A DNA stretch of 63,531 bases from an uncultured Alphaproteobacteria bacterium (GCA_946629975.1 CAMOYJ010000001.1:1-63531), one strand, 5' to 3'. Numbered from the stretch's first letter, positions 19,875 to 63,531 are shown. A program made the numbers and translations. The notes: a model not told the origin generated them from the letters alone.

Positions 19875-20420
19875 ATGGCTGCTCGTTGGTATGTTGTTAA
19901 TGTTTATTCCGGTTCGGAAAAGAAGGTTGCCGAGTCGCTCAAAGAACAAGCCGTTTTGAAAAAAATGGAAGACAAGATTTTAGATGTTTTGGTGCCGACA
20001 GAAGATGTGATCGAAATCAAAAAGGGCAAAAAAGTCAGCACTGAAAAGAAGTTTTTCCCCGGCTATATCTTAGTTAAAATGGATATGGATGACACAGTTT
20101 GGCACGTTGTGAAAAACACACCGCGTGTGAGCGGATTTTTGGGAACGCGTGACGGTTTGCGCTTAAAACCGCAACCGATCAGCGAAAAAGAAGTTGAACA
20201 AATTATGAAGCAAATGCAAGAAGGCGTTGAACGCCCGCAAACAATTGCAACTTTCGAAGTTGGCGAAAATGTTCGCGTGACCGATGGTCCGTTTGCATCT
20301 TTCGTTGGTGTTGTTGAAGAGGTAGACACAGAAAAAACACGTCTCAAGGTTTCTGTTTCTATTTTCGGTCGATACACACCGGTTGAGTTGGAATTTGCTC
20401 AAGTTGAAAAAGTAAAATAA
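19875..20420 (+). CDS. nusG: Transcription termination/antitermination factor NusG
   Basis: RWYVVNVYSGSEKKV...FPGYILVKM...KOW region (GENVRVTDGPFASFVGVVEEVD). Confidence 0.95.
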   Translation: MAARWYVVNVYSGSEKKVAESLKEQAVLKKMEDKILDVLVPTEDVIEIKKGKKVSTEKKFFPGYILVKMDMDDTVWHVVKNTPRVSGFLGTRDGLRLKPQPISEKEVEQIMKQMQEGVERPQTIATFEVGENVRVTDGPFASFVGVVEEVDTEKTRLKVSVSIFGRYTPVELEFAQVEKVK

Positions 20421-20730
20421 AAGCTTATAATGGTCAACTACTTGTGCGGCCGCTTTCTTATGTACCTTTTTTGTACACAGCGAAAGCGGCCGTACGTCGT
20501 ATTTGACTCATTCTAAGCTTTTATTGGCTAAAACAAATTGGTGAAAAGTATACGGGTTTTCTTATGTACCTTTTTTGTACACAGCGAAAGCGGCCGTACG
20601 TCGTATTTGACTCATTCTAAGCTTTTATTGGCTAAAACAAATTGGTGAAAAGTATACGGGTTTTCTTATGTACCTTTTTTGTACACAGCAAAACAGGCTT
20701 CCGTCGTAACTGACATATTCTGCATTTTGG
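20421..20730. repeat. Tandem array of a 104-bp unit (two identical central copies, degenerate outer copies)
   Basis: Units start at 20457, 20561 and 20665. Copies 1 and 2 look identical by eye. Copy 3 and the segment 20421-20456 are degenerate. Each unit contains the palindrome tgtac-ctttttt-gtaca and a GC-rich gaaagcggccg box. Confidence 0.85.
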
Positions 20731-26158: not shown

Positions 26159-29100
26159 ATGTTTTCAAAGTTTTTTATAGATCGCCCGCGTTTTGCGATT
26201 GTTGTTTCACTTGTGCTTGTGTTGCTCGGGCTTTTAGCGCTTGCCGTTTTGCCGGTTTCACAATATCCCGAAATCACGCCGCCGCAAATTTCGCTCAAAA
26301 CAACTTATCCGGGTGCAAACTCAAAGGTGTTGGTGGATACGGTTGCCACCCCGATTGAAAATAAAATCAACGGTGTTGAAAATATGCTTTATATGGCCTC
26401 CACATCTGATGACGGCGGCAACTATAATTTGACAGTGACTTTTAATGTGGGTGCAAACCCTGATATTTCACAAGTGAAAGTGCAAAACAGGCTGCAACAG
26501 GTAATGTCTGAATTGCCGCCGATTGTGACCGAACAGGGCATAGATGTTGCAACGCGAAACCCGAATATTTTGGGCTTTTTGGTATTGCGCTCACCAAACA
26601 ACACCTATTCCGGATTATATTTGAGCAACTATGCTTATGAAAACATCAAAAACCCGATTGCACGCGTGAAGGGCATCGGCGATGTGCAGATTTTCGGGCC
26701 GCAATATGCCATGCGTATTTGGCTCGACACCGATAAAATTCATGCCTTGGGTTTAGATTCAAACAGCATTATCAATGCAGTCAAAACCCAAAATGTGCAG
26801 GCATCAGTGGGCAGTATTGGTGCCTCACCCGCAAGCAAAGACAACACCATGGTTTTAGCTCTAACGGCAAAGGGGTTGTTGCAAAGCGCTGAAGATTTTG
26901 AAAACATTGTGGTGGCAACCTCTCAAAACGGCGGATTGATACGTTTGAAAGATGTTGCAAAGGTTGAGCTCGGGGCAGATTCGTATGGCATTGAGTCGGC
27001 TTTTAAAAATGCACCCGGGGTGATTATTGCCTTAAACCAAACGCCGAATTCGAACTCACTTGACATTATGAAACGTATCAGAAAAGAGGTTGCTGAAATT
27101 TCAAAAAGCTTTCCGGATGATATGGTTTTAGAGGTAGCATACGATTCAACTGCTTATGTTTCAGCTTCAATTGCGGGTATTGTTGAAACGCTTGTTATCA
27201 CCTTTTTGCTTGTGGCGCTTGTAACATATGTGTTTTTGCAAAAGTTCAAAACAACACTTATTCCGCTTTTTACAATTCCTGTTTCATTGATTGCAACATT
27301 TATCATTGTTTATATGTTGGGGTTTGATATCAACATTTTGACATTGTTTGCGTTTATTTTAGCCATCGGTTTGGTGGTGGACGATGCCATTATTGTGGTT
27401 GAACGTGTGGAATATTTGATGGAGCATGAAAACTTAAATGCTTATGAAGCATCTGTTAAAGCAATGTCACAAATTTCAAGTGCGATTGTGGCAACAACAT
27501 TTGTGCTCTTGTCGATTTTTATTCCGGTCGGCTTGATGGCCGGTATCACAGGCAAAATCTATCAACAGTTTGCAGTGGCGATTGCAACTTCGGTTATTTT
27601 TTCGGCTGTCAATGCGCTCACCTTGTCGCCGGCATTGTGTGCCATCTTTTTGAAAAATGCAAATGAGAAAAAGACGGGCAAATTTTTTGAAAAATTTAAT
27701 CAGGCACTGAAATGGAGCGAAAAAAAATATATTTCAAGCGTCACATTTTTTGCCTCCAAATTGTGGGCAACGGTTGCCTCTGTTTTAGGGGCAATTTTGC
27801 TTATCTTTTTAGGCTTTAAGTTCACCCCCGCCTCTTTTTTGCCCGAAGAAGATCAGGGGATTATTTTTGCAAACATTCAATTGCCGAACACCGCACCGTT
27901 GAACCAAACCGAAGATGTCTTAAAAGATTTGTCGCAAAAAGCGATGGCAATGGAAGGGGTTGATTTTGTTGTAACCGTTGCAGGATACAGCTTGCTTGGC
28001 GGACAGGGCGAAAATGTTGCGCTCGGGGTGGTGGGTTTAAAAAACTGGAGCGAACGCAAACAAAAATCTCTTTCATCAGAGGCCATCACTTTAAGGCTTT
28101 CAAAAGAGTTTCAAGACAACTCAAAAGCAGAAATCAACTTTTTTGCGCCACCTGCCATTCCGGGTATCGGACAGGCCGGCGGGCTTTCATTTGAGCTCTT
28201 GGCATTAGATGGGAGCATTAGTCCGAAAGAGCTTTATGATAACTTGGCGCTTTTCTTGCAAAAACTCAATTCTTTGCCCGAAATTGCTTATGCCTTTTCA
28301 ACCTACACGGCAGATACACCGCATGTTTATCTTGATATTGACCGCACAAAACTTGAAAGTTTTGATGTGCCTGTTTCAGCATTATTTGAAACTTTGCAAA
28401 ATAATTTGGGCTCCAGATATGTCAACAACATGACATTAAACGGGCAGGTCAACAAGGTGATTATTCAGGCAGATTTTGATTATCGACAAAGTTTTGAAGA
28501 TATTGAAAACCTCTATGTGACCTCAAACAAAGGCGAGCAAATCAAGGTCAAAAGCTTTGCAAGGCTCAAAACAGAAGTGAGTCCGAAAATTATTTCGCGA
28601 TATAATTTATATAGCGCGGCGGCCATCACAGCCCAAAGCAAAACAAACATTTCAAGCGGCACGGCAATAGATAAGATTGTTCAAACGGCCGGCGAGATTT
28701 TGCCCAAAACATTTCGTATTTCGTGGACGGGTTTGTCGCTCCAAGAAGTTGAAGCCAGAGGGCTCGCCGGTATTTTGATCTCGATGGCGCTCGTGTTTTG
28801 CTATTTGTTTTTGGTGGCGCTTTATGAGAGCTGGATGCTTGCTTTTGCGGTGATGTTTTCAACGGTGTTTGCGATTTTGGGCGCCTTTGCCGGCCTGCAT
28901 ATTATGGGACACTCTTTGAGTATTTATGCGCAACTCGGTTTGATTATGCTCATCGGCTTGGCGGCTAAAAATGCGATTTTGATTGTGGAGTTCACCAAAA
29001 ATTATCGCGAGGCCGGCTATTCGATTTTAGAAGCTTCCGAAAAAGGAGCGGGCGAAAGGTTCAGAGCCGTTTTGATGACAGCCTTAACGTTTATTTTGGG

Positions 29101-29284
29101 CATTTTCCCAATGTTGATTGTTAAAGGGGCGGGCGCTGCTTCGCAGCACGCCATCGGCACATCTGTCTTTTTTGGGATGATTGCGGCAACCTTCATCGGC
29201 ATTATCTTTATTCCGGCTTTGTTTGCCCTTTTTGAAACCTTCAAAGAAAAGAAAGGCTATCATCAGGAGAAAAAAGATGCGTAA
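26159..29284 (+). CDS. RND multidrug efflux permease (AcrB/HAE1-like)
   Basis: [16 protein letters not shown]-terminus, 1041 aa, 12-TM pattern, [12 protein letters not shown] motif. Confidence 0.95.
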
Positions 29285-51364: not shown

Positions 51365-51391
51365 AAAAGCGCTCATTTGAGCGCTCTTTTC
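51364..51391. terminator. Bidirectional rho-independent terminator
   Basis: agcgctc-attt-gagcgct hairpin flanked by an A-run and a T-run, between convergent genes. Confidence 0.7.
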
Positions 51392-54300
51392 TATTTTGCT
51401 TTGCCGTATTTTTCCGTGATGGTTTGGAAGAGAACATACAAAAGCGGAATGATGAGCAAACCGCCCATTGTGCCGATGAGCATACCCCAGAAAACAGGCA
51501 CGCCGATGGCAACACGGCTTCCTGCGCCGGCGCCTGTGGCCACAATCAAGGGGAGCATACCCAAAATAAAGGTAAATGCGGTCATCAACACGGCTCTGAA
51601 ACGCTCTTTGGTGGCAGTTGTTGCCGCTTTGTCAATCGAGGCGCCTTTGGCGCGTTCATCGCGCGCAAATTCCACAATCAAAATAGCGTTTTTCGCCGCC
51701 AAGCCAACAAGCAAAATCAGACCGAGCTGGGCATAAATGCTGAGCGGTAAGCCTGTGATGAAGATGCCGACAAATGCACCGAGCATAGCAACCAAAACAG
51801 ACATCAAAACCGAAACAGGCAACATCCAGCTTTCGTATTGCGCCACCAAAAACAGATAAGCAAACAACACGGCAAGTGCAATCAAATAGCCCACCTGTCC
51901 GCTGTTTTTCTTTTCTTGCAAACTCATGGTTGACCACTCATAGTTATAGCCATCGGGCAGAACTGAAGCTGCCAAATCTTCCATCGCTTTCATAGCCTGT
52001 CCGCTTGAAACGCCGGGCGCGGTCATAGCTGTGATGGTTGCGGCCGGAAACTGATTGTATCGGTCTAGACTACGTGGCGCTTGAATCATTTCAATTTTAA
52101 TCAAACTTCCTAAAGGCACCATATTGCCGTTGTTTGAGGGAACATGGATTTTGCGGATGCTGTCAATATCTTTACGATATGGCCAATCTGCCTGAACCAT
52201 GACCTTGTTGACCTGTGTGCCGATGTTGATGTCGTTCACATAGCCCGAGCCGAGATAGTTTTGCAAAACCGAATAAATGGAAGAGACGGAAACATTCATC
52301 ACTTCGGCTTTTTCTTTGTCTATCTCAATATGAGCGTGCGGGGTGGCAGCCGTAAAAGTTGAAAAGGCATACATAATTTCAGGCAAAGCGTTCACCTTTG
52401 CAACAAAACTTTTGGTCACGGTCTCGAGCAGCTTTGGATCTGTTGAATCAATAGACTGCAGCCTAAAGTCCATACCGCCGGTGTTGCCCAAACCGGGAAT
52501 AGCCGGAAATTCAAAAAGGTTGATGTCGGCCTCAGGGATGTTTGCAACCCGTGCCTTAATGCGGTTTAAAATGTTGGTTGAATATTCGGATTTTCCTTTT
52601 CTTTGATCCCACGGTTTTAAGTGAACAACGGCAATACCCACGTTTTCGCCTTGTCCGGAGAGCATCGAAAAGCCGATAATATCCATCACCGATTCAACAC
52701 TTTTTTCGGCCTTTGCAAGCGGGATAAACTCTTTGATGACTTCATCTGTTCGAGGCTGTGTTGCGCCTTCCGGAAGCTGAATATTAGTCACAATCACACC
52801 TTGGTCTTCAGCCGGAATAAAGCTCGTGTGGCTCACTTTGAAGAACAACGCATTAAAGACAAACAAAAGCCCTAAAATGAGCGCAATAACGCTCACTTTG
52901 CGCGCAATATATCCGACAACGGCCAAATATTTGTTGCGACTCTTATCCACAATCTTGTTAAACCACAAAAGCGGTCCATGTGTTGCCGGTTTTAAAGGCC
53001 TTAAAATAGTTGCACACAAAGCAGGCGATAATGTCAAAGCATTAAGCGATGAAAACGACACGGCAAATGAAATGGAAATCGCAAATTGCTGATAAATTTT
53101 GCCGGTAATGCCGCCGATAAAAGCAATCGGCACAAAAATGGCAAGCAACACCAACGTTGTGGCAATAATGGCAGATGAAACCTGTTCCATAGCTTTAACG
53201 GCAGCATCATGCGGCGAAAGTTTTTCTTGTTCCATCAAGGTCAAAACGCGCTCCACCACCACAATGGCATCATCAACCACCAAACCGATTGCAAGCACCA
53301 AACCGAACAATGTCAAAATATTTAAGCTGTATCCAAATGCAAGCATCACCGCAAAGGTTGCTAAAAGCGAAACAGGAATGGTGATAGACGGCACAAGCGT
53401 TGAACGCCAGTCTTGCAAAAAGATATAACAAACGGCAACCACCAAAACAAAGGTCATCAAAAGCGTTTCAACAACTTCTTTGATGGAGGCTTTAATATAG
53501 TCCGTTGCATCAAAGAAAACTTCAATTGTGAAATCTTCAGGATAAAATTGTTCCAACCGTTTGAGCTCGGCCCTGACGGCTTTCATGGCCTGAATGGCAT
53601 TTGCGCCTGAGAGCGTATTAAGCCCGATTGAAACAGAGGTTGCACCATCAATCTCAGATTTGAAAACATAGTTTTCAGAGCCGATTTCAACGCGTGCAAT
53701 GTCTTTTAAGCGCACAAGCCCGCCGTCTTCTTCGGTGCGGACGATAATGTTTTCAAAATCTTTGGCTTCATTCAAACGGCCTTGCGTTTCCAAAGTATAA
53801 ACCATTTGCTGACCGTCATCACCGGGCATTGACCCGACCGAACCCAAAGAAGGCTGGAAGTTTTGGCTTGAAATGGCGGCTCTAACGCTTGAAACAGGAA
53901 TGTTCAACGCTGCAATTTTATCAGCATCGAGCCAAACACGCATTGAAAGCGGTGCGGCGTAAACGCTTACTTCACCCACACCGTAAAGACGCGCCAAGTT
54001 GTTTTTGACGTTGTTTTCAATATAGTTACTCATAAAGCTGCGGTCGTGTGTGCCATTTGGCGAACGGGCAACCAAAAAGCCCAAAATATCAGACGAGCGG
54101 CGTTTGACCGAAACACCATATTGCTGAACTTCAGTCGGCAACTTGTTCATGGCCTGTTGAACGCGGTTTTGAACTTTCACTTGCGCCATATCCGGATCCG
54201 TGCCAACCTCAAAGCTGACCGCTAAGCGATAAGAACCGGTGTTTGATGAGGTAGATGACATATAAAGCATATCTTCCACACCGTTGACTTCTTGCTCAAT

Positions 54301-54495
54301 CGGAATACCGATTGTGTTGGCAACAACCTCGGCCGATGCACCGGTGTAGTTTGCTGTCACATTCACTTCAGGCGGGGTAATTTGCGGATAAAGCGAAATC
54401 GGAAGTGAAAAAACGGAGATGATGCCTGCAAGAAGCATCACAACTGCAATCACAATTGCAAAACGCGGACGTTCAATAAAAAACTTTGAAAACAT
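51391..54495 (-). CDS. RND multidrug efflux permease (AcrB/HAE1-like), paralogue of 26159-29284
   Basis: [16 protein letters not shown]-terminus, 1034 aa, [12 protein letters not shown] motif. Confidence 0.95.
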
Positions 54496-61392: not shown

Positions 61393-61419
61393 AAAAAAAA
61401 CAGCCCCATGAAGGGGCTC
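61393..61419. terminator. Hairpin terminator (strong on the minus strand)
   Basis: agcccc-atgaa-ggggct. The minus-strand transcript is followed by U8, whereas the plus strand lacks a U-run. Confidence 0.55.
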
Positions 61420-61425
61420 GTTAGT

Positions 61426-61536
61426 GGCTGCGCGGAGTGTACAATCTTCGAACTTTTAGAGCACCACCGTGCAGAAATAATTGCAGTTAAGGAGCAGATG
61501 CGGTATGTGGAAGAAAGACTCATAAAAAATGCCTCA
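61426..61536 (+). repeat. Conserved module M, copy 1 (GGCTGC box plus codon-like conserved segment)
   Basis: Its first 33 nt match 62469-62501 with one mismatch. The remainder is ~70 % identical to 62502-62579 in one reading frame. Confidence 0.7.
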
Positions 61537-61549
61537 CCGAAAAGATGAG
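61523..61549 (-). terminator. Rho-independent terminator of 61580-62143
   Basis: Minus-strand hairpin ctcatc-ttttc-ggtgag (one G-U pair) followed by a U-run. Confidence 0.55.
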
Positions 61550-61579: not shown

Positions 61580-62143
61580 TTACATCTCTCGACCATTGGT
61601 ACGAGTTTGATGGCCATTTTCTTGTGGCATATATGTATCTTTGACAGCGGTTTTAATTGTTAATATTTGTTCGTCATTTAAGCCAATTGCATGCCCAAGC
61701 TCCTCACCATGTTTCCATGTTGCTATCAGATATTTACAAATTGCTCTGTCTCCTGCATGACAGTATGTATCAGGCACATAATCTACGTATTCGTGACCAT
61801 CTTTAATATATTTAGTTTCATAACCAAAGCGAAAGAAATTTCGTTTCACTTTACTGTATACACCAGCTGTTAATCTGCCACCGTTTTTTTTCATTTCTAC
61901 CTGAATGGCTCTTCCTATAATTTCGGAATCTCTCGCAATAATGTCACACATATCAAAAGTTTTTATGTTATTTGCCAACTCTTGATCAGTACATTTATAA
62001 GTTTCAGAATCAATACTTGAAATAAATTTTTTTTGTTCTTCTAAAAATTTTTTCTTGTTAATTTTATCATATGCGAAACTGAAAGACTGCTCAATTTTTT
62101 CCTTCAGCGTATAATTAGGAGTTGGCATATATATTCCCATCAT
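61580..62143 (-). CDS. Hypothetical protein (cassette gene B)
   Basis: 187 aa. SD gaaagga before ATGATG, with its own TTGACA-17-TAAAAT promoter. No family recognised. Confidence 0.55.
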   Translation of the reverse strand: MMGIYMPTPNYTLKEKIEQSFSFAYDKINKKKFLEEQKKFISSIDSETYKCTDQELANNIKTFDMCDIIARDSEIIGRAIQVEMKKNGGRLTAGVYSKVKRNFFRFGYETKYIKDGHEYVDYVPDTYCHAGDRAICKYLIATWKHGEELGHAIGLNDEQILTIKTAVKDTYMPQENGHQTRTNGREM

Positions 62144-62222: not shown

Positions 62223-62304
62223 TTTTTTTATGCAAAAAAACGATTTTTTTATTCAAAATAAAAATAAAGGGCTCTCGACGTGTTGTGAGAACCCTGTTCA
62301 ACTT

Positions 62305-62474
62305 GGCTGCTTTACCTGGACTGGGCTACGGCTTTTATCAAAAAAGCCTCGCCCGATCTTGTCGCGTGCCGACATTGCCGTCACGCACCGCGATTTCGAA
62401 CCGCTTGGTTCTTCACCATAGGATAAAATAGCCAACAAAAAAAGCACCGCAAGGGTGCTGTTTTCGTTGGCTGC
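62305..62474. repeat. Structured repeat E, copy 1 (four hairpins, bounded by GGCTGC boxes)
   Basis: About 93 % identical by eye to 63363-63531. Hairpins at 62323-62354, 62364-62386, 62398-62411 and 62430-62472. Confidence 0.85.
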
Positions 62475-62579
62475 ACGGAGTGTACAATCTTCGAACTTTT
62501 AAAAGCCCATCGCCTGGAAGTTGTTGCCATAAGAGAACAACTCAGTTTTGTTAGAAAAAGACTTATAAAAAATACCTCA
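62469..62579 (+). repeat. Conserved module M, copy 2
   Basis: See 61426-61536. It follows repeat E directly and has no in-frame start codon. Confidence 0.7.
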
Positions 62580-62596
62580 ATTATTAAAATTGAGGC
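62565..62596 (-). terminator. Rho-independent terminator of 62623-63273
   Basis: cctcaat/attgagg hairpin. The minus-strand transcript is followed by a U-rich run. Confidence 0.55.
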
Positions 62597-62622
62597 GCGA
62601 AATGTCCATAATAAAGAAAAAA

Positions 62623-63273
62623 TCACTTACCTTGAGATTTTTTGAATTTTGTTTTTGCAACAGATACGGCGATATTATTAAATGCTTTTGAATCGGCAAT
62701 TTTAGCGGCTGCTTTTTGAAGTTTTGGCTTATCTTCAAGTTTTTTAAGTTGCTCTTCTTTTTTCTTTTCAACATGTTGCTTAGCAAAATAAATTTTTGTG
62801 TCTTCAACACCATCTTTATCAAAATGTTTAATTCCGCCCTTTTCAGTCCATTCAAACTCTTTTTGTTTTGAATTAGGATAATATACACGTTTGGTTGAAT
62901 TACATTCGATACAATTTTCTAATTCATCAAAACGACAGAAAATCTCTCCTCCATCTGAGTTAGAATAATGAGATGATGACATTTTTCCGTTTTCATATCT
63001 GTATACGGATTTACTTTCCGAATAATCAGAACAAGAAAATGAGTCATATTCATCTTTTGCTTCATGAGTTAACAATTTTGAGAGTCTATCTTCCTGTTTT
63101 TTCCATGCTTCTTCGAATTTTTCTTTCAAAAGTGCTGGTGGTTCTTTTCTTTTTTGTTCTTTTGAAGATTTTTGATAACCATTGCCTGATGTGCCACGTC
63201 TTCTCATTCGAGATAAATTTGCAACCGTTGCAGCATTAGCCGCTGCAGTTGCTGCAGATATAATCACAACCAT
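62623..63273 (-). CDS. Hypothetical protein (cassette gene A)
   Basis: 216 aa with an Ala-rich N-terminus and Lys/Glu-rich regions. Has its own promoter. No family recognised. Confidence 0.55.
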   Translation of the reverse strand: MVVIISAATAAANAATVANLSRMRRRGTSGNGYQKSSKEQKRKEPPALLKEKFEEAWKKQEDRLSKLLTHEAKDEYDSFSCSDYSESKSVYRYENGKMSSSHYSNSDGGEIFCRFDELENCIECNSTKRVYYPNSKQKEFEWTEKGGIKHFDKDGVEDTKIYFAKQHVEKKKEEQLKKLEDKPKLQKAAAKIADSKAFNNIAVSVAKTKFKKSQGK

Positions 63274-63338: not shown

Positions 63339-63362
63339 TCTTTTTTGATATTTTTGATTAGT

Positions 63363-63531
63363 GGCTGCTTGAACTGGACTGGGCTGCGGCTTTTATAAAA
63401 AAGCCTCGCCCGATCTTGTCGTGTGTCGACGTTGCCGACACACACTGCGATTTCGAACCCCTTGGTTCTTCACCATAGGATAAAATAGCCAACAAAAAAA
63501 GCACCGCAAGGGTGCTGTTTTCGTTGGCTGC
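63363..63531. repeat. Structured repeat E, copy 2 (ends exactly at the window edge)
   Basis: Colinear with 62305-62474. The last ~75 nt look identical by eye. The window ends at the second GGCTGC box. Confidence 0.85.

What the first reader, a model, noticed from the sequence alone, without database searches (positions are those of the whole stretch)
62305..62474. Repeat E: four consecutive hairpins whose differences between copies are compensatory
Copy 1 (62305-62474) and copy 2 (63363-63531) differ at about 11 positions by my count. Six of these fall in or next to hairpin H2. Copy 1 reads gcgtgccg-acattgc-cgtcacgc (62364-62386, one C-T mismatch) and copy 2 reads gtgtgtcg-acgttgc-cgacacac (a perfect 8 bp). 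One C-G pair becomes T-A and the mismatch becomes a T-A pair, so four of the changes preserve or improve pairing. H1 is gggc..ggctttt-loop-aaaagcc..gccc (62323-62354). H3 is gaacc-gctt-ggttc (62398-62411), with loop cctt in copy 2. In H1 and H3, differences are confined to loops. H4 (62430-62472) is identical in both copies. Selection therefore seems to act on secondary structure, either of an RNA or of single-stranded DNA (as in integron attC sites, REP elements and IS200/IS605 ends). I could not find a convincing promoter for E on either strand. On the minus strand E lies downstream of a terminator, which slightly favours a DNA-level role.
Basis: partly seen in the sequence, partly recalled or inferred. 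Interest (0 to 1): 0.65.

Follow-up and report, generated by a model that had tools for sequence, protein, structure and literature searches.

The report
tRNA-Gln-derived structured spacer in integration array
Repeat E is a real, structure-conserved 165-base non-coding unit built from two inverted pieces of a tRNA-Gln gene; it sits between gene cassettes that a phage-type serine recombinase has inserted next to that tRNA gene, and each unit border re-creates the recombinase's target site.

Summary
The two copies differ at 11 positions, and four changes in H2 are compensatory. Across 17 distinct copies from 10 loci, H1 and H2 co-vary well beyond the shuffle and slide controls.

The context changes the meaning. 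The 7-mer TGGCTGC at every module border is the reverse complement of the 3' end of a tRNA-Gln(CUG) gene. In 7 related loci that gene closes the array.

The neighbouring repeat D is the displaced 3' coding end of a large serine recombinase (LSR) gene. The LSR attP lies inside its own gene. This is shown by a free phage, a prophage, and full-length LSRs that end in the D peptide.

E starts with 13-19 nt of antisense tRNA 3' end. It ends with a degenerate sense copy of the tRNA 3' half plus a bidirectional terminator (H4). As a result, every E|E, E|tRNA and E|cassette junction looks like an empty or an occupied LSR attB.

E has no promoter on either strand, no Rfam match, and no clear RNA-seq signal.

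Best reading: E is a tRNA-derived, tandemly arrayed landing-pad and insulator unit. What its conserved hairpins do is unresolved. It is not an integron attC site, a REP element or an IS200/IS605 end.

The parts
61402..61418 (.). Native chromosomal terminator hairpin downstream of the GNAT gene. It is the left (B) half of the first occupied attachment site.
   Evidence: It is terminator-like on the - strand. It is followed by GTTAG|TGGCTGC and then D1.
61425..61431 (.). Core TGGCTGC, the reverse complement of the tRNA-Gln 3' end GCAGCCA, at the chromosome/D1 junction.
61426..61548 (+). D1: a remnant of the 3' coding end of a large serine recombinase gene (..CTIFELLEHHRAEIIAVKEQMRYVEERL..).
   Evidence: Peptide conservation and codon-position bias. 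Full-length LSRs end in this tail.
61580..62143 (-). Cassette ORF1 (187 aa, no family match). It has its own promoter (62222-62194) and its own terminator (61554-61528).
   Evidence: Metatranscriptome contigs cover it.
62266..62303 (.). Right end of cassette 1: a hairpin plus CCCTGTTCAACT, which is a remnant of the LSR 3' end (the P arm).
   Evidence: 16 of 20 nt are identical to the prophage LSR end CCTCTGTTCAGTGTGGCTGC.
62304..62322 (.). A 19-nt copy (1 mismatch) of the antisense tRNA-Gln 3' end, TGGCTGCTTtACCTGGACT. It forms the left border of E1.
62305..62474 (.). Repeat E, copy 1 (the finding).
62320..62357 (.). H1. It has a 7-bp base stem (ACTGGGC/GCCCGAT) and a type-specific extension.
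   Evidence: 11 of 15 pairs covary. The base stem is ATCGGGC/GCCCGAT or ATTGAGC/GCTCAAT in other E types.
62359..62393 (.). P2. P2a is TTGT/GCGA.
   Evidence: 6 of 8 P2b pairs covary. The differences between copy 1 and copy 2 are compensatory.
62390..62434 (+). Degenerate sense copy of the tRNA-Gln 3' half, from the anticodon loop to GCCA. It contains H3 (62398-62411) and a T-arm-like CTTGGTTCTTCACCATAGG.
   Evidence: Local alignment to the tRNA beats shuffles, with p from 0.03 to below 0.0005 in four E variants. L016 has a canonical T arm at this place.
62430..62474 (.). H4: a bidirectional terminator-like hairpin that ends in the core TGGCTGC (62468-62474). It is the B half of the next attachment site.
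62469..62645 (+). D2: the second remnant of the LSR 3' end.
62623..63273 (-). Cassette ORF2 (216 aa, no family match). Promoter at 63338-63309, terminator at 62596-62574.
63362..63531 (.). Core plus repeat E, copy 2. It runs to the window end, where the assembly breaks.
   Evidence: The array continues on scaffold_6124 of the same sample (L021).

Best explanation
What E is. E is the repeat unit of a tRNA-Gln-linked array of attachment sites. It is not a free-standing RNA gene and not a transposon end.

Shown:
1. Every module border carries TGGCTGC(TTCACCTGGACT), the antisense of the 3' end of a tRNA-Gln(CUG) gene. In related genomes that gene ends the array.
2. The adjoining repeat D is the 3' end of a large serine recombinase (LSR) gene. 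The attP of that LSR lies inside its own coding end. When the element integrates at the tRNA end, the tail is carried to the far side of the element.
3. The small ORF cassettes keep both LSR-element ends (D on the left, ..CTGTTCAnnT on the right) but have no recombinase gene.
4. E begins with 13-19 nt of antisense tRNA end, which includes the TGGAC motif shared with attP. It ends with a degenerate sense tRNA 3' half plus a terminator hairpin of the form ..CTGTTTTCGT|TGGCTGC.

Inferred:
- Each E|E and E|tRNA junction is an unoccupied attB.
- Each junction of the form 'cassette right end|E' or 'E|D' is an occupied attB.
- A tandem run of E units therefore acts as a multi-site landing pad, and it accumulates phage-derived cassettes without disturbing the tRNA gene.
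- H4 terminates tRNA-Gln transcription on one strand. On the other strand it terminates read-through from integrated elements, including the truncated LSR gene.
- The stems between (H1, P2) are kept as hairpins whatever their sequence. My best guess is that together with H4 they form a strand-symmetric structural insulator, comparable to a BIME. The two inverted tRNA-derived ends can pair and close the structure into a cloverleaf-like fold.
For: tRNA identity of the core, and intact tRNA-Gln at the array end in 7 loci (2 more are cut by the contig end).

D is the LSR tail:
- LSRs P0024/25/31/32/35/36 end in ..HRAEVxAIKxQLxxVRxKxAA.
- P0029/30 read across CGC into antisense tRNA (FTWTRTKIDGVRIRCPTIRR).
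- Free-phage attP and the prophage junction.
- Pfam Resolvase + Recombinase.
- Coding signature of D: 342 synonymous codon differences in frame against 98 and 25 in the other frames.

The window's own array continues to an element that ends in two LSR genes.

Module grammar is consistent in all loci.

E occurs without any cassette as chromosome|E|E|tRNA in L008. It also occurs as the chromosome-proximal unit in L017/L023, where LSR cassettes follow it.

An E-E tandem is seen in another sample ('goes back 163').

Covariation. No promoter, and terminators on both strands. tRNA homology of the right part of E.
Against: - No recombination assay exists. That E junctions work as attB is inferred from sequence similarity only. 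E keeps just 13-19 nt of the tRNA side and lacks the TCGAAC motif that the tRNA and attP have further out.
- An insulator role does not obviously need two sequence-free hairpins plus conserved linkers (GATCTTG, GCGATTYCGAAC). H1 and P2 have no U-tracts.
- Different E types (A-D) are mixed within arrays, and H4 types are shuffled relative to body types. That fits mobility or frequent recombination better than simple local duplication.
- The tRNA gene of the window's own genome was not reached, because the contigs end first.
Confidence: 0.45

Rival explanations
1. E is itself a mobile, non-autonomous mini-element of about 150 nt plus an att core. A recombinase supplied in trans inserts it at the tRNA-Gln 3' end one copy after another. 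Its folded, cloverleaf-like form or its conserved linkers would be the recognition element.
For: - In tandem runs each E is flanked by 15-19-nt direct repeats of the tRNA end.
- The leftmost E in L008 and L017 abuts chromosomal DNA exactly at TGCTTCA/TGCTTTA.
- Arrays mix diverged E types, and the same types recur in different genomes in different orders.
- E lies between cassettes in the window although the chromosome-proximal site has no E.
- A 190-aa tyrosine-recombinase-domain protein is encoded in the adjacent element.
Against: - The junction of a circular E would be identical to an attB-like site, and LSRs do not recombine B-type sites with each other.
- No empty-site versus filled-site pair with exact borders was found.
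- No circular junction can be told apart from a tandem repeat.
- E was not found in viral contigs or phage records.
Confidence: 0.2
2. E(+) is a gene for a tRNA-shaped small RNA. TGCTTCA would be its 5' acceptor strand. H1 and P2 would replace the D and anticodon arms. A T-arm-like hairpin, a 3' acceptor strand and GCCA follow, and H4 terminates it.
For: - The right 48 nt are homologous to the sense 3' half of tRNA-Gln. L016 has a canonical T arm, ATTGGTTCAAATCCAAT.
- H4 is terminator-like on the + strand.
- G.T wobbles outnumber A.C on the + strand, 52 to 22.
- The MFE fold closes into a four-way junction.
Against: - There is no promoter. E is often directly preceded by a terminator: the H4 of the previous unit, or the hairpin + T-run in L023.
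- ARAGORN and the Rfam tRNA model do not score it.
- The acceptor-like stem has 2 mismatches in 7.
- Metatranscriptome contigs cover the cassette ORFs. Over E there is only one low-depth fragment.
Confidence: 0.12
3. The hairpins are relics. E is decayed att and tRNA debris from old integrations. Its palindromes persist through template-switch (quasi-palindrome) mutation and gene conversion between copies, without selection for function.
For: - Both ends are recognisable tRNA fragments.
- The paired changes between copy 1 and copy 2 are of the kind that template switching produces.
- The copies are related, so shuffle controls overstate significance (caveat).
Against: - H1 and P2b keep pairing in types whose stems differ at 5 of 8 positions. 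L007 and L006 differ by two double changes in the inner P2 hairpin.
- The linkers between the stems are conserved over the same divergence.
- Architecture and length are kept in all 17 distinct copies.
Confidence: 0.1
4. E folds as single-stranded DNA and is the substrate of a recombinase or HUH nuclease. This would resemble integron attC, CTX-phage attP or IS608 ends, and is the first reader's preferred reading.
For: - The structure is equally available on both strands and as DNA.
- There is no promoter.
- The paired inverted tRNA-derived ends would rebuild a duplex copy of the attB half-site.
- A 357-aa protein with HUH-like motifs (FTLN, HIHGVI, YITKY) is encoded just after D in two elements.
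Against: - The recombinases clearly tied to the borders are serine recombinases, which use double-stranded sites.
- No IntI, TnpA or RAYT gene was found in about 35 kb around the array.
- Cassette borders lie at the tRNA core after H4, not inside the E stem.
- The HUH-like protein has no family match and only a low-confidence model.
Confidence: 0.08
5. E(-) is co-transcribed with tRNA-Gln. It would be processed as a tRNA-like RNA whose 3' end is the tRNA-Gln 3' end and whose 5' and 3' ends pair into a 12-15-bp minihelix.
For: - The - strand folds better (z = -5.9).
- Every E(-) ends in ..AGTCCAGGTGAAGCAGCCA followed by a terminator-like hairpin.
- The closing stem has 14 of 15 pairs on the - strand in L012_1952 (sequence reading).
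Against: - A strong terminator (H4, 7 U) lies between the tRNA and each E body.
- There is no promoter.
- On the - strand the invariant T.G pairs of P2a become C.A mismatches.
Confidence: 0.05

Closest known systems
Tandem arrays of integrative elements at tRNA genes (tycheposon islands of Prochlorococcus; tRNA/tmRNA islands catalogued in Islander)
   Same: An intact tRNA sits at one end, and partial tRNA copies mark the module borders. New elements push older ones outward. Integrase-less remnants and cargo or defence genes are present (bioRxiv 10.1101/2020.12.28.424599; PMC4383910).
   Different: Here the recombinase is a large serine recombinase, not a tyrosine recombinase. Identity at the cassette borders is only 7 nt. 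Structure-conserved non-coding units (E) are interleaved, and they are not simple displaced tRNA fragments.
CIMEs (cis-mobilisable elements) and site-specific accretion, as described for the ICESt1/ICESt3 family (from my own knowledge)
   Same: The cassettes are flanked by att sites but lack recombination genes, and they accumulate next to the primary site.
   Different: Mobilisation of these cassettes is not shown. E carries no gene at all.
Integron attC sites
   Same: Non-coding units lie between single-gene cassettes. Structure is conserved more than sequence. The array sits next to a primary site.
   Different: There is no IntI/attI and no R''/R' consensus. The borders are a tRNA 3' end. 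Cassette ORFs have their own promoters and face away. The associated enzyme uses duplex DNA.
Integration-dependent gene truncation in mycobacteriophage BPs (attP inside the repressor gene; an ssrA-like tail is removed on integration; PMC4557955)
   Same: attP lies inside a coding 3' end, and integration replaces the C-terminal tail. The free-form LSR tails end in ..AA.
   Different: The gene that is cut is the serine integrase itself. The role of the tail has not been tested. This concerns repeat D, not E.
REP/BIME extragenic palindromes
   Same: Mosaics of hairpins with compensatory stem changes lie between converging transcription units. They are usable on either strand and are terminator-associated.
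   Different: E is 165 nt, derived from a tRNA, and confined to one locus. No RAYT gene was found.

Membership tests
Integron attC | IntI-type tyrosine integrase with attI next to the array | tested here: not met
   Pfam scans of the genes around the array in the window, L001, L016, L008, L021 and L025 show two LSRs and one 190-aa Phage_integrase-domain protein far from the array start. No IntI/attI arrangement is present.
Integron attC | R'' RYYYAAC ... R' GTTRRRY imperfect palindrome, with the cassette border inside R' (G|TT) | tested here: not met
   The borders are TGGCTGC, which is the tRNA end. The outer arms of H4 are AGCCAAC/GTTGGCT in some copies but AGCCACTAA/TTAGTGGCT or AGCCATAAA/TTTATGGCT in others.
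REP/BIME | Short palindromic units dispersed in many intergenic regions, with a RAYT gene in the genome | tested here: not met
   The covariance model finds E only in the array within 63.5 kb of window and about 240 kb of loci. Repeat search of the whole window gives the same result. The rest of the genome was not available.
IS200/IS605 ends or PATE | TnpA (Y1 HUH) and/or TnpB nearby, subterminal hairpins, and insertion 3' of a fixed tetra- or pentanucleotide without repeats | tested here: not met
   No such gene was found. The modules are flanked by direct repeats of the tRNA end.
tRNA-linked integration hotspot (island array) | Intact tRNA gene at one end, and copies of its 3' end at each module border | tested here: met
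   tRNA-Gln(CUG) is found at the end of the array in L006, L007, L008, L012, L014, L015 and L016. The core is present at all borders. In the window itself the tRNA lies beyond the contig end.
Large serine recombinase att system | LSR gene (Resolvase + Recombinase domains) at the element end | tested here: met
   P0014 (486 aa) and a second LSR lie on the continuation of the window's array. P0030 lies next to tRNA-Gln in a prophage.
Large serine recombinase att system | attP x attB gives hybrid junctions with only a short shared core. The half-sites are imperfect inverted repeats. | tested here: met
   Free phage attP is GTGTTCACTC-TGGCTGC-CCCGGCTGGACA. The prophage junction is TCTGTTCAGTG-TGGCTGC-TTTGCCTGGATTCGAACC. 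This is a sequence comparison only.
Large serine recombinase att system | Recombination at E junctions is actually catalysed by the LSR | not testable with these tools
   This needs an in vivo or in vitro assay.
Known RNA families (Rfam 15, including tRNA, tmRNA and Y RNA-like) | Score at or above the family gathering threshold | tested here: not met
   There is no hit at E at the gathering threshold. Only sub-threshold terminator-type hits appear at E <= 10. ARAGORN is negative.
MITE | Terminal inverted repeats, a target-site duplication, and many dispersed copies | tested here: inconclusive
   The inverted tRNA-derived ends pair at 13-14 of 15 positions. The flanking repeats are the tRNA end, not a duplication of arbitrary target. 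No dispersed copies were seen in the DNA at hand.

The most novel reading that the evidence does not exclude
E is a new kind of non-autonomous element: a portable, structure-defined copy of a recombinase target. It would be a tRNA-mimicking 'landing pad' that propagates at the tRNA-Gln 3' end and multiplies the docking sites for serine-integrase phages and cassettes. For a serine-recombinase system that would play the role attC plays in integrons. Its fold (the paired inverted tRNA ends plus H1 and P2) would be what is recognised or selected.
Probability: 0.2. Interest if true: 0.8.

Novelty: new variant of a known kind. Interest (0 to 1): 0.55.

Why it matters
If E units work as repeated attB sites, this locus is an integron-like gene-capture platform. 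It would be built from a tRNA gene, a serine integrase and structured spacer units, in uncultured rumen and gut Alphaproteobacteria. Its cargo looks like phage defence: MmeI-type restriction-modification, helicases, AbiTii and Gp30.3-like genes.

That would extend the ways bacteria are known to stack mobile cassettes. It would also offer natural multi-site landing pads for serine integrases, which are widely used tools.

The side finding may matter in its own right. The LSR gene carries its attP in its own 3' end and swaps its C-terminal tail on integration, which suggests a built-in switch of integrase stability or activity.

Tried and rejected
- Rfam, at gathering and at permissive thresholds, and ARAGORN: nothing at E.
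- Viral contig scans with two patterns: 0 hits, then 8 chance hits inside coding sequence.
- blastn against phage records: no match.
- First genome-collection pattern: 4 hits, of which 2 were relevant and 2 (L004, L005) had no array features. L009 from the metagenome scan likewise had none.
- MAFFT + RNAalifold on mixed E types misaligned H1 and H2 and found little. I replaced this with a covariance-model alignment.
- D as a stand-alone small ORF or as the tail of some other protein: rejected once full-length LSRs with that tail were found.
- tmRNA-like, two-piece tmRNA and retron ideas: no support.
- The strand test by G.U against A.C is not decisive.
- RNA-seq contigs are too sparse to decide whether E is transcribed.
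- HUH-like 357-aa protein: no Pfam, PHROG or PDB sequence match. The AlphaFold model has pLDDT 42, so I ran no fold search.
- Sigma-70 promoter scan: nothing for E on either strand.

Full report
**Observation**

The two copies of repeat E (62305-62474 and 63363-63531) are real. They differ at 10 substitutions and one indel.
- In H2, 62365/62385 change a C-G pair to T-A.
- 62369/62381 repair a C-T mismatch to T-A.
- Two more changes lie in or next to the H2 loop.
- H3 and part of H1 change only in loops.
- H4 is identical in both copies.

E folds much better than dinucleotide shuffles on either strand and as DNA, with z from -4.4 to -5.9.

**What the borders are**

Every module border in the array carries TGGCTGC or TGGCTGG. 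Searches of public genomes and metagenomes for conserved E linkers returned rumen and gut Alphaproteobacteria MAGs and contigs.

In these, the array ends in TGGCTGCTTCACCTGGACTCGAACC.., which is the reverse complement of an intact tRNA-Gln(CUG) gene. The 7-mer is therefore the acceptor end, discriminator base and CCA (GCAGCCA) of that tRNA. The left 13-19 nt of each E are a copy of the tRNA 3' end. On the tRNA strand, H4 is the terminator-like hairpin that follows every such copy, and it is terminator-like on both strands.

The window is the end of a metagenome scaffold. The same locus in MAG GCA_003542415.1 (L001), and a second scaffold of the same sample (L021, L025), continue the array.

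**What the neighbouring repeat D is**

The 100-nt repeat that follows E (61425-61536 and 62468-62579) encodes a conserved peptide on the + strand..CT(I/V)xxLLxxHRxE(V/I)(V/I)A(I/V)KEQLxYVxERL. Its substitutions are mainly at third codon positions. There are 342 synonymous codon differences in frame, against 98 and 25 in the other two frames.

A first homology search found only small ORFs. Following the array outward led to large serine recombinase (LSR) genes.
- Full-length LSRs of 577-583 aa (P0024/25/26/31/32/35/36) end in exactly this peptide, typically ..HRAEVLAIKEQLxYVREKLAA.
- Their relatives P0029/30 instead read ..NLTSVQCGC|FTWTRTKIDGVRIRCPTIRR. That is, they read across TGGCTGC into the antisense of tRNA-Gln.
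- A free phage genome (L027) shows the intact attP inside the LSR 3' end.
- A prophage (L026) shows the LSR-tRNA junction.

D is therefore the part of the integrase gene that integration moves to the far end of the element. The right ends of the cassettes (..CCCTGTTCAACT|TGGCTGC) are remnants of the LSR coding end. The small cassettes in the window are ORF1 (61580-62143) and ORF2 (62623-63273). Each has its own promoter and terminator, neither matches any family, and both are integrase-less derivatives of such elements.

**Where that leaves E**

Read with LSR logic, E is flanked as follows:
- On the left: [element right end]|core|[first 13-19 nt of tRNA antisense, including the TGGAC motif that attP also has 6 nt from the core].
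- On the right: [H4 ..CTGTTTTCGT]|core|[D]. Its CTGTT motif is 3 nt from the core, as in the LSR end.

Junctions E|E and E|tRNA are therefore complete and unoccupied attB-like sites. Junctions with cassettes are occupied ones. All loci obey this grammar.

E also occurs with no cassette at all, as chromosome|E|E|tRNA in L008. It also occurs as the chromosome-proximal unit in L017/L023, where LSR cassettes follow it. In these cases its left border is TGCTTCA.. without the CCA-derived GGC. A tandem E-E junction is seen in another sample. One contig lacks exactly one E+D+ORF unit of 1058 nt.

**Anatomy of E**

A covariance model built from five A-type copies finds 19 copies, 17 of them distinct, in 10 loci.

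On that alignment 92.3% of cells are paired, against 82.1% in shuffles and 32-44% when partners are slid. 19 pairs change on both sides, against 10.2 +/- 1.7.
- Covariation is concentrated in H1 (11 of 15 pairs) and P2b, which is H2 (6 of 8 pairs).
- The H1 base stem is ACTGGGC/GCCCGAT, ATCGGGC/GCCCGAT or ATTGAGC/GCTCAAT.
- P2b is GTGTGTCG/CGACACAC or ACACGGCG/CGCCGTGT.
- The inner P2 hairpin of B-type copies is AAGCG/CGCTT or ACGCC/GGCGT.
- The linkers (CCTGGA, GATCTTG, GCGATTYCGAAC, CTTGGTTCTTCACC) are conserved.

The right 48 nt of E align to the sense 3' half of tRNA-Gln, from the anticodon loop to GCCA, better than shuffles. p ranges from 0.03 to below 0.0005, and L016 has a canonical T arm.

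E thus carries two inverted tRNA-Gln-derived ends. They can pair at 13-14 of 15 positions and close a four-way junction.

H4 types are shuffled relative to body types, so the units are mosaics.

**RNA or DNA?**

- No sigma-70-like promoter precedes E on either strand. E is bracketed by terminator-like hairpins.
- Rfam and ARAGORN find nothing.
- Metatranscriptome contigs cover the cassette ORFs. They show only a low-depth fragment over E, which could be DNA carry-over.
- G.T pairs outnumber A.C pairs 52 to 22 on the + strand. Most of these come from invariant positions. Segment energies slightly favour the - strand.

The question stays open.

**Interpretation**

Firmly shown:
- E lies in an integration hotspot next to tRNA-Gln that is driven by a serine integrase.
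- The borders of E are tRNA-derived.
- D is an integrase-gene remnant.

Most likely, at about 0.45: E units are tandem, tRNA-derived landing-pad and insulator modules, whose junctions offer extra attB sites and whose H4 terminates transcription in both directions. The conserved hairpins are unexplained by this alone.

Rivals:
- A self-propagating mini-element (0.2).
- A tRNA-shaped small RNA on the + strand (0.12).
- Neutral relics kept palindromic by templated mutation (0.1).
- A folded single-stranded DNA site (0.08).
- A co-transcribed - strand RNA (0.05).

Membership in integron attC, REP/BIME or IS200/IS605 was tested and not met.

**Comparison with known systems**

Accretion of islands at tRNA genes with partial tRNA repeats is well known (10.1101/2020.12.28.424599; PMC4383910). 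Truncation of a phage gene by an internal attP is known from mycobacteriophage BPs (PMC4557955).

I found no description of three things: a structure-conserved, doubly tRNA-derived spacer unit that alternates with cassettes; a serine integrase whose attP lies in its own 3' end and targets a tRNA end; and the combination of the two into an integron-like array. The literature search was limited.

Noticed in passing
L027 4740-4870; L026 7600-7690; proteins P0024-P0036: A family of large serine recombinases carries attP inside its own 3' coding end and targets tRNA 3' ends. Free forms end in a conserved helix that finishes with ..AA, which is ssrA-like. Integrated forms get a tail encoded by the antisense tRNA. 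P0027, P0028, P0033 and P0034 read into other tRNAs.
   Followed up: partly
L001 1341-2414 (- strand) = L021 2442-3515; L017/L023 homologue (P0011): A 346-357-aa protein sits just after D in two elements. It has only 8 homologues in 5.8 billion proteins and no Pfam, PHROG or PDB match. It carries motifs like those of rolling-circle Rep/HUH Y2 enzymes (FPFTLNLS, LHIHGVIEV, WFNYITKY). The AlphaFold model is low-confidence (pLDDT 42).
   Followed up: partly
L021/L025 (scaffold_6124 of the window's sample): The element after D4 is a defence-type island. It carries a Y-family polymerase, DUF3768, an MmeI-type restriction-modification enzyme, a ResIII helicase, T5orf172, a 190-aa tyrosine-recombinase-domain protein, an HTH regulator, an SNase and two tandem LSR genes.
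   Followed up: partly
window 61580-62143 and 62623-63273 (- strand): Two cassette ORFs (187 and 216 aa) have strong own promoters and terminators and no hit in Pfam or PHROGs. Both appear in rumen metatranscriptome contigs.
   Followed up: partly
L013 1301-1420: A chimeric module. The left part of E (core, H1, GATCTTTCC) is fused directly to the distal part of D (..KEQIRYIKEILTKNAS). This looks like a deletion or a recombinant between E and D.
   Followed up: no
window 20454-20698: A perfect tandem repeat of 104 nt (2 full copies plus a 37-nt start of a third), downstream of the 19875-20420 ORF.
   Followed up: no
window 26159-29284 (+) and 51391-54495 (-): Two inverted paralogous RND efflux pump genes, seen as long inverted repeats with 70-84% complementarity. 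Membrane-fusion genes lie next to each.
   Followed up: no
L007 661-790: The chromosomal flank left of the first D contains an E-like right half (..CAACTCTCCGAACGGCTGGTTCAAGTCCAATGATGGAGCAACCCA + hairpin). It resembles D-type E units and includes a T-arm-like GGTTCAAGTCC.
   Followed up: no
L010 1501-1591: A tRNA-Ser(GGA) gene lies inside the cassette region of one array.
   Followed up: no
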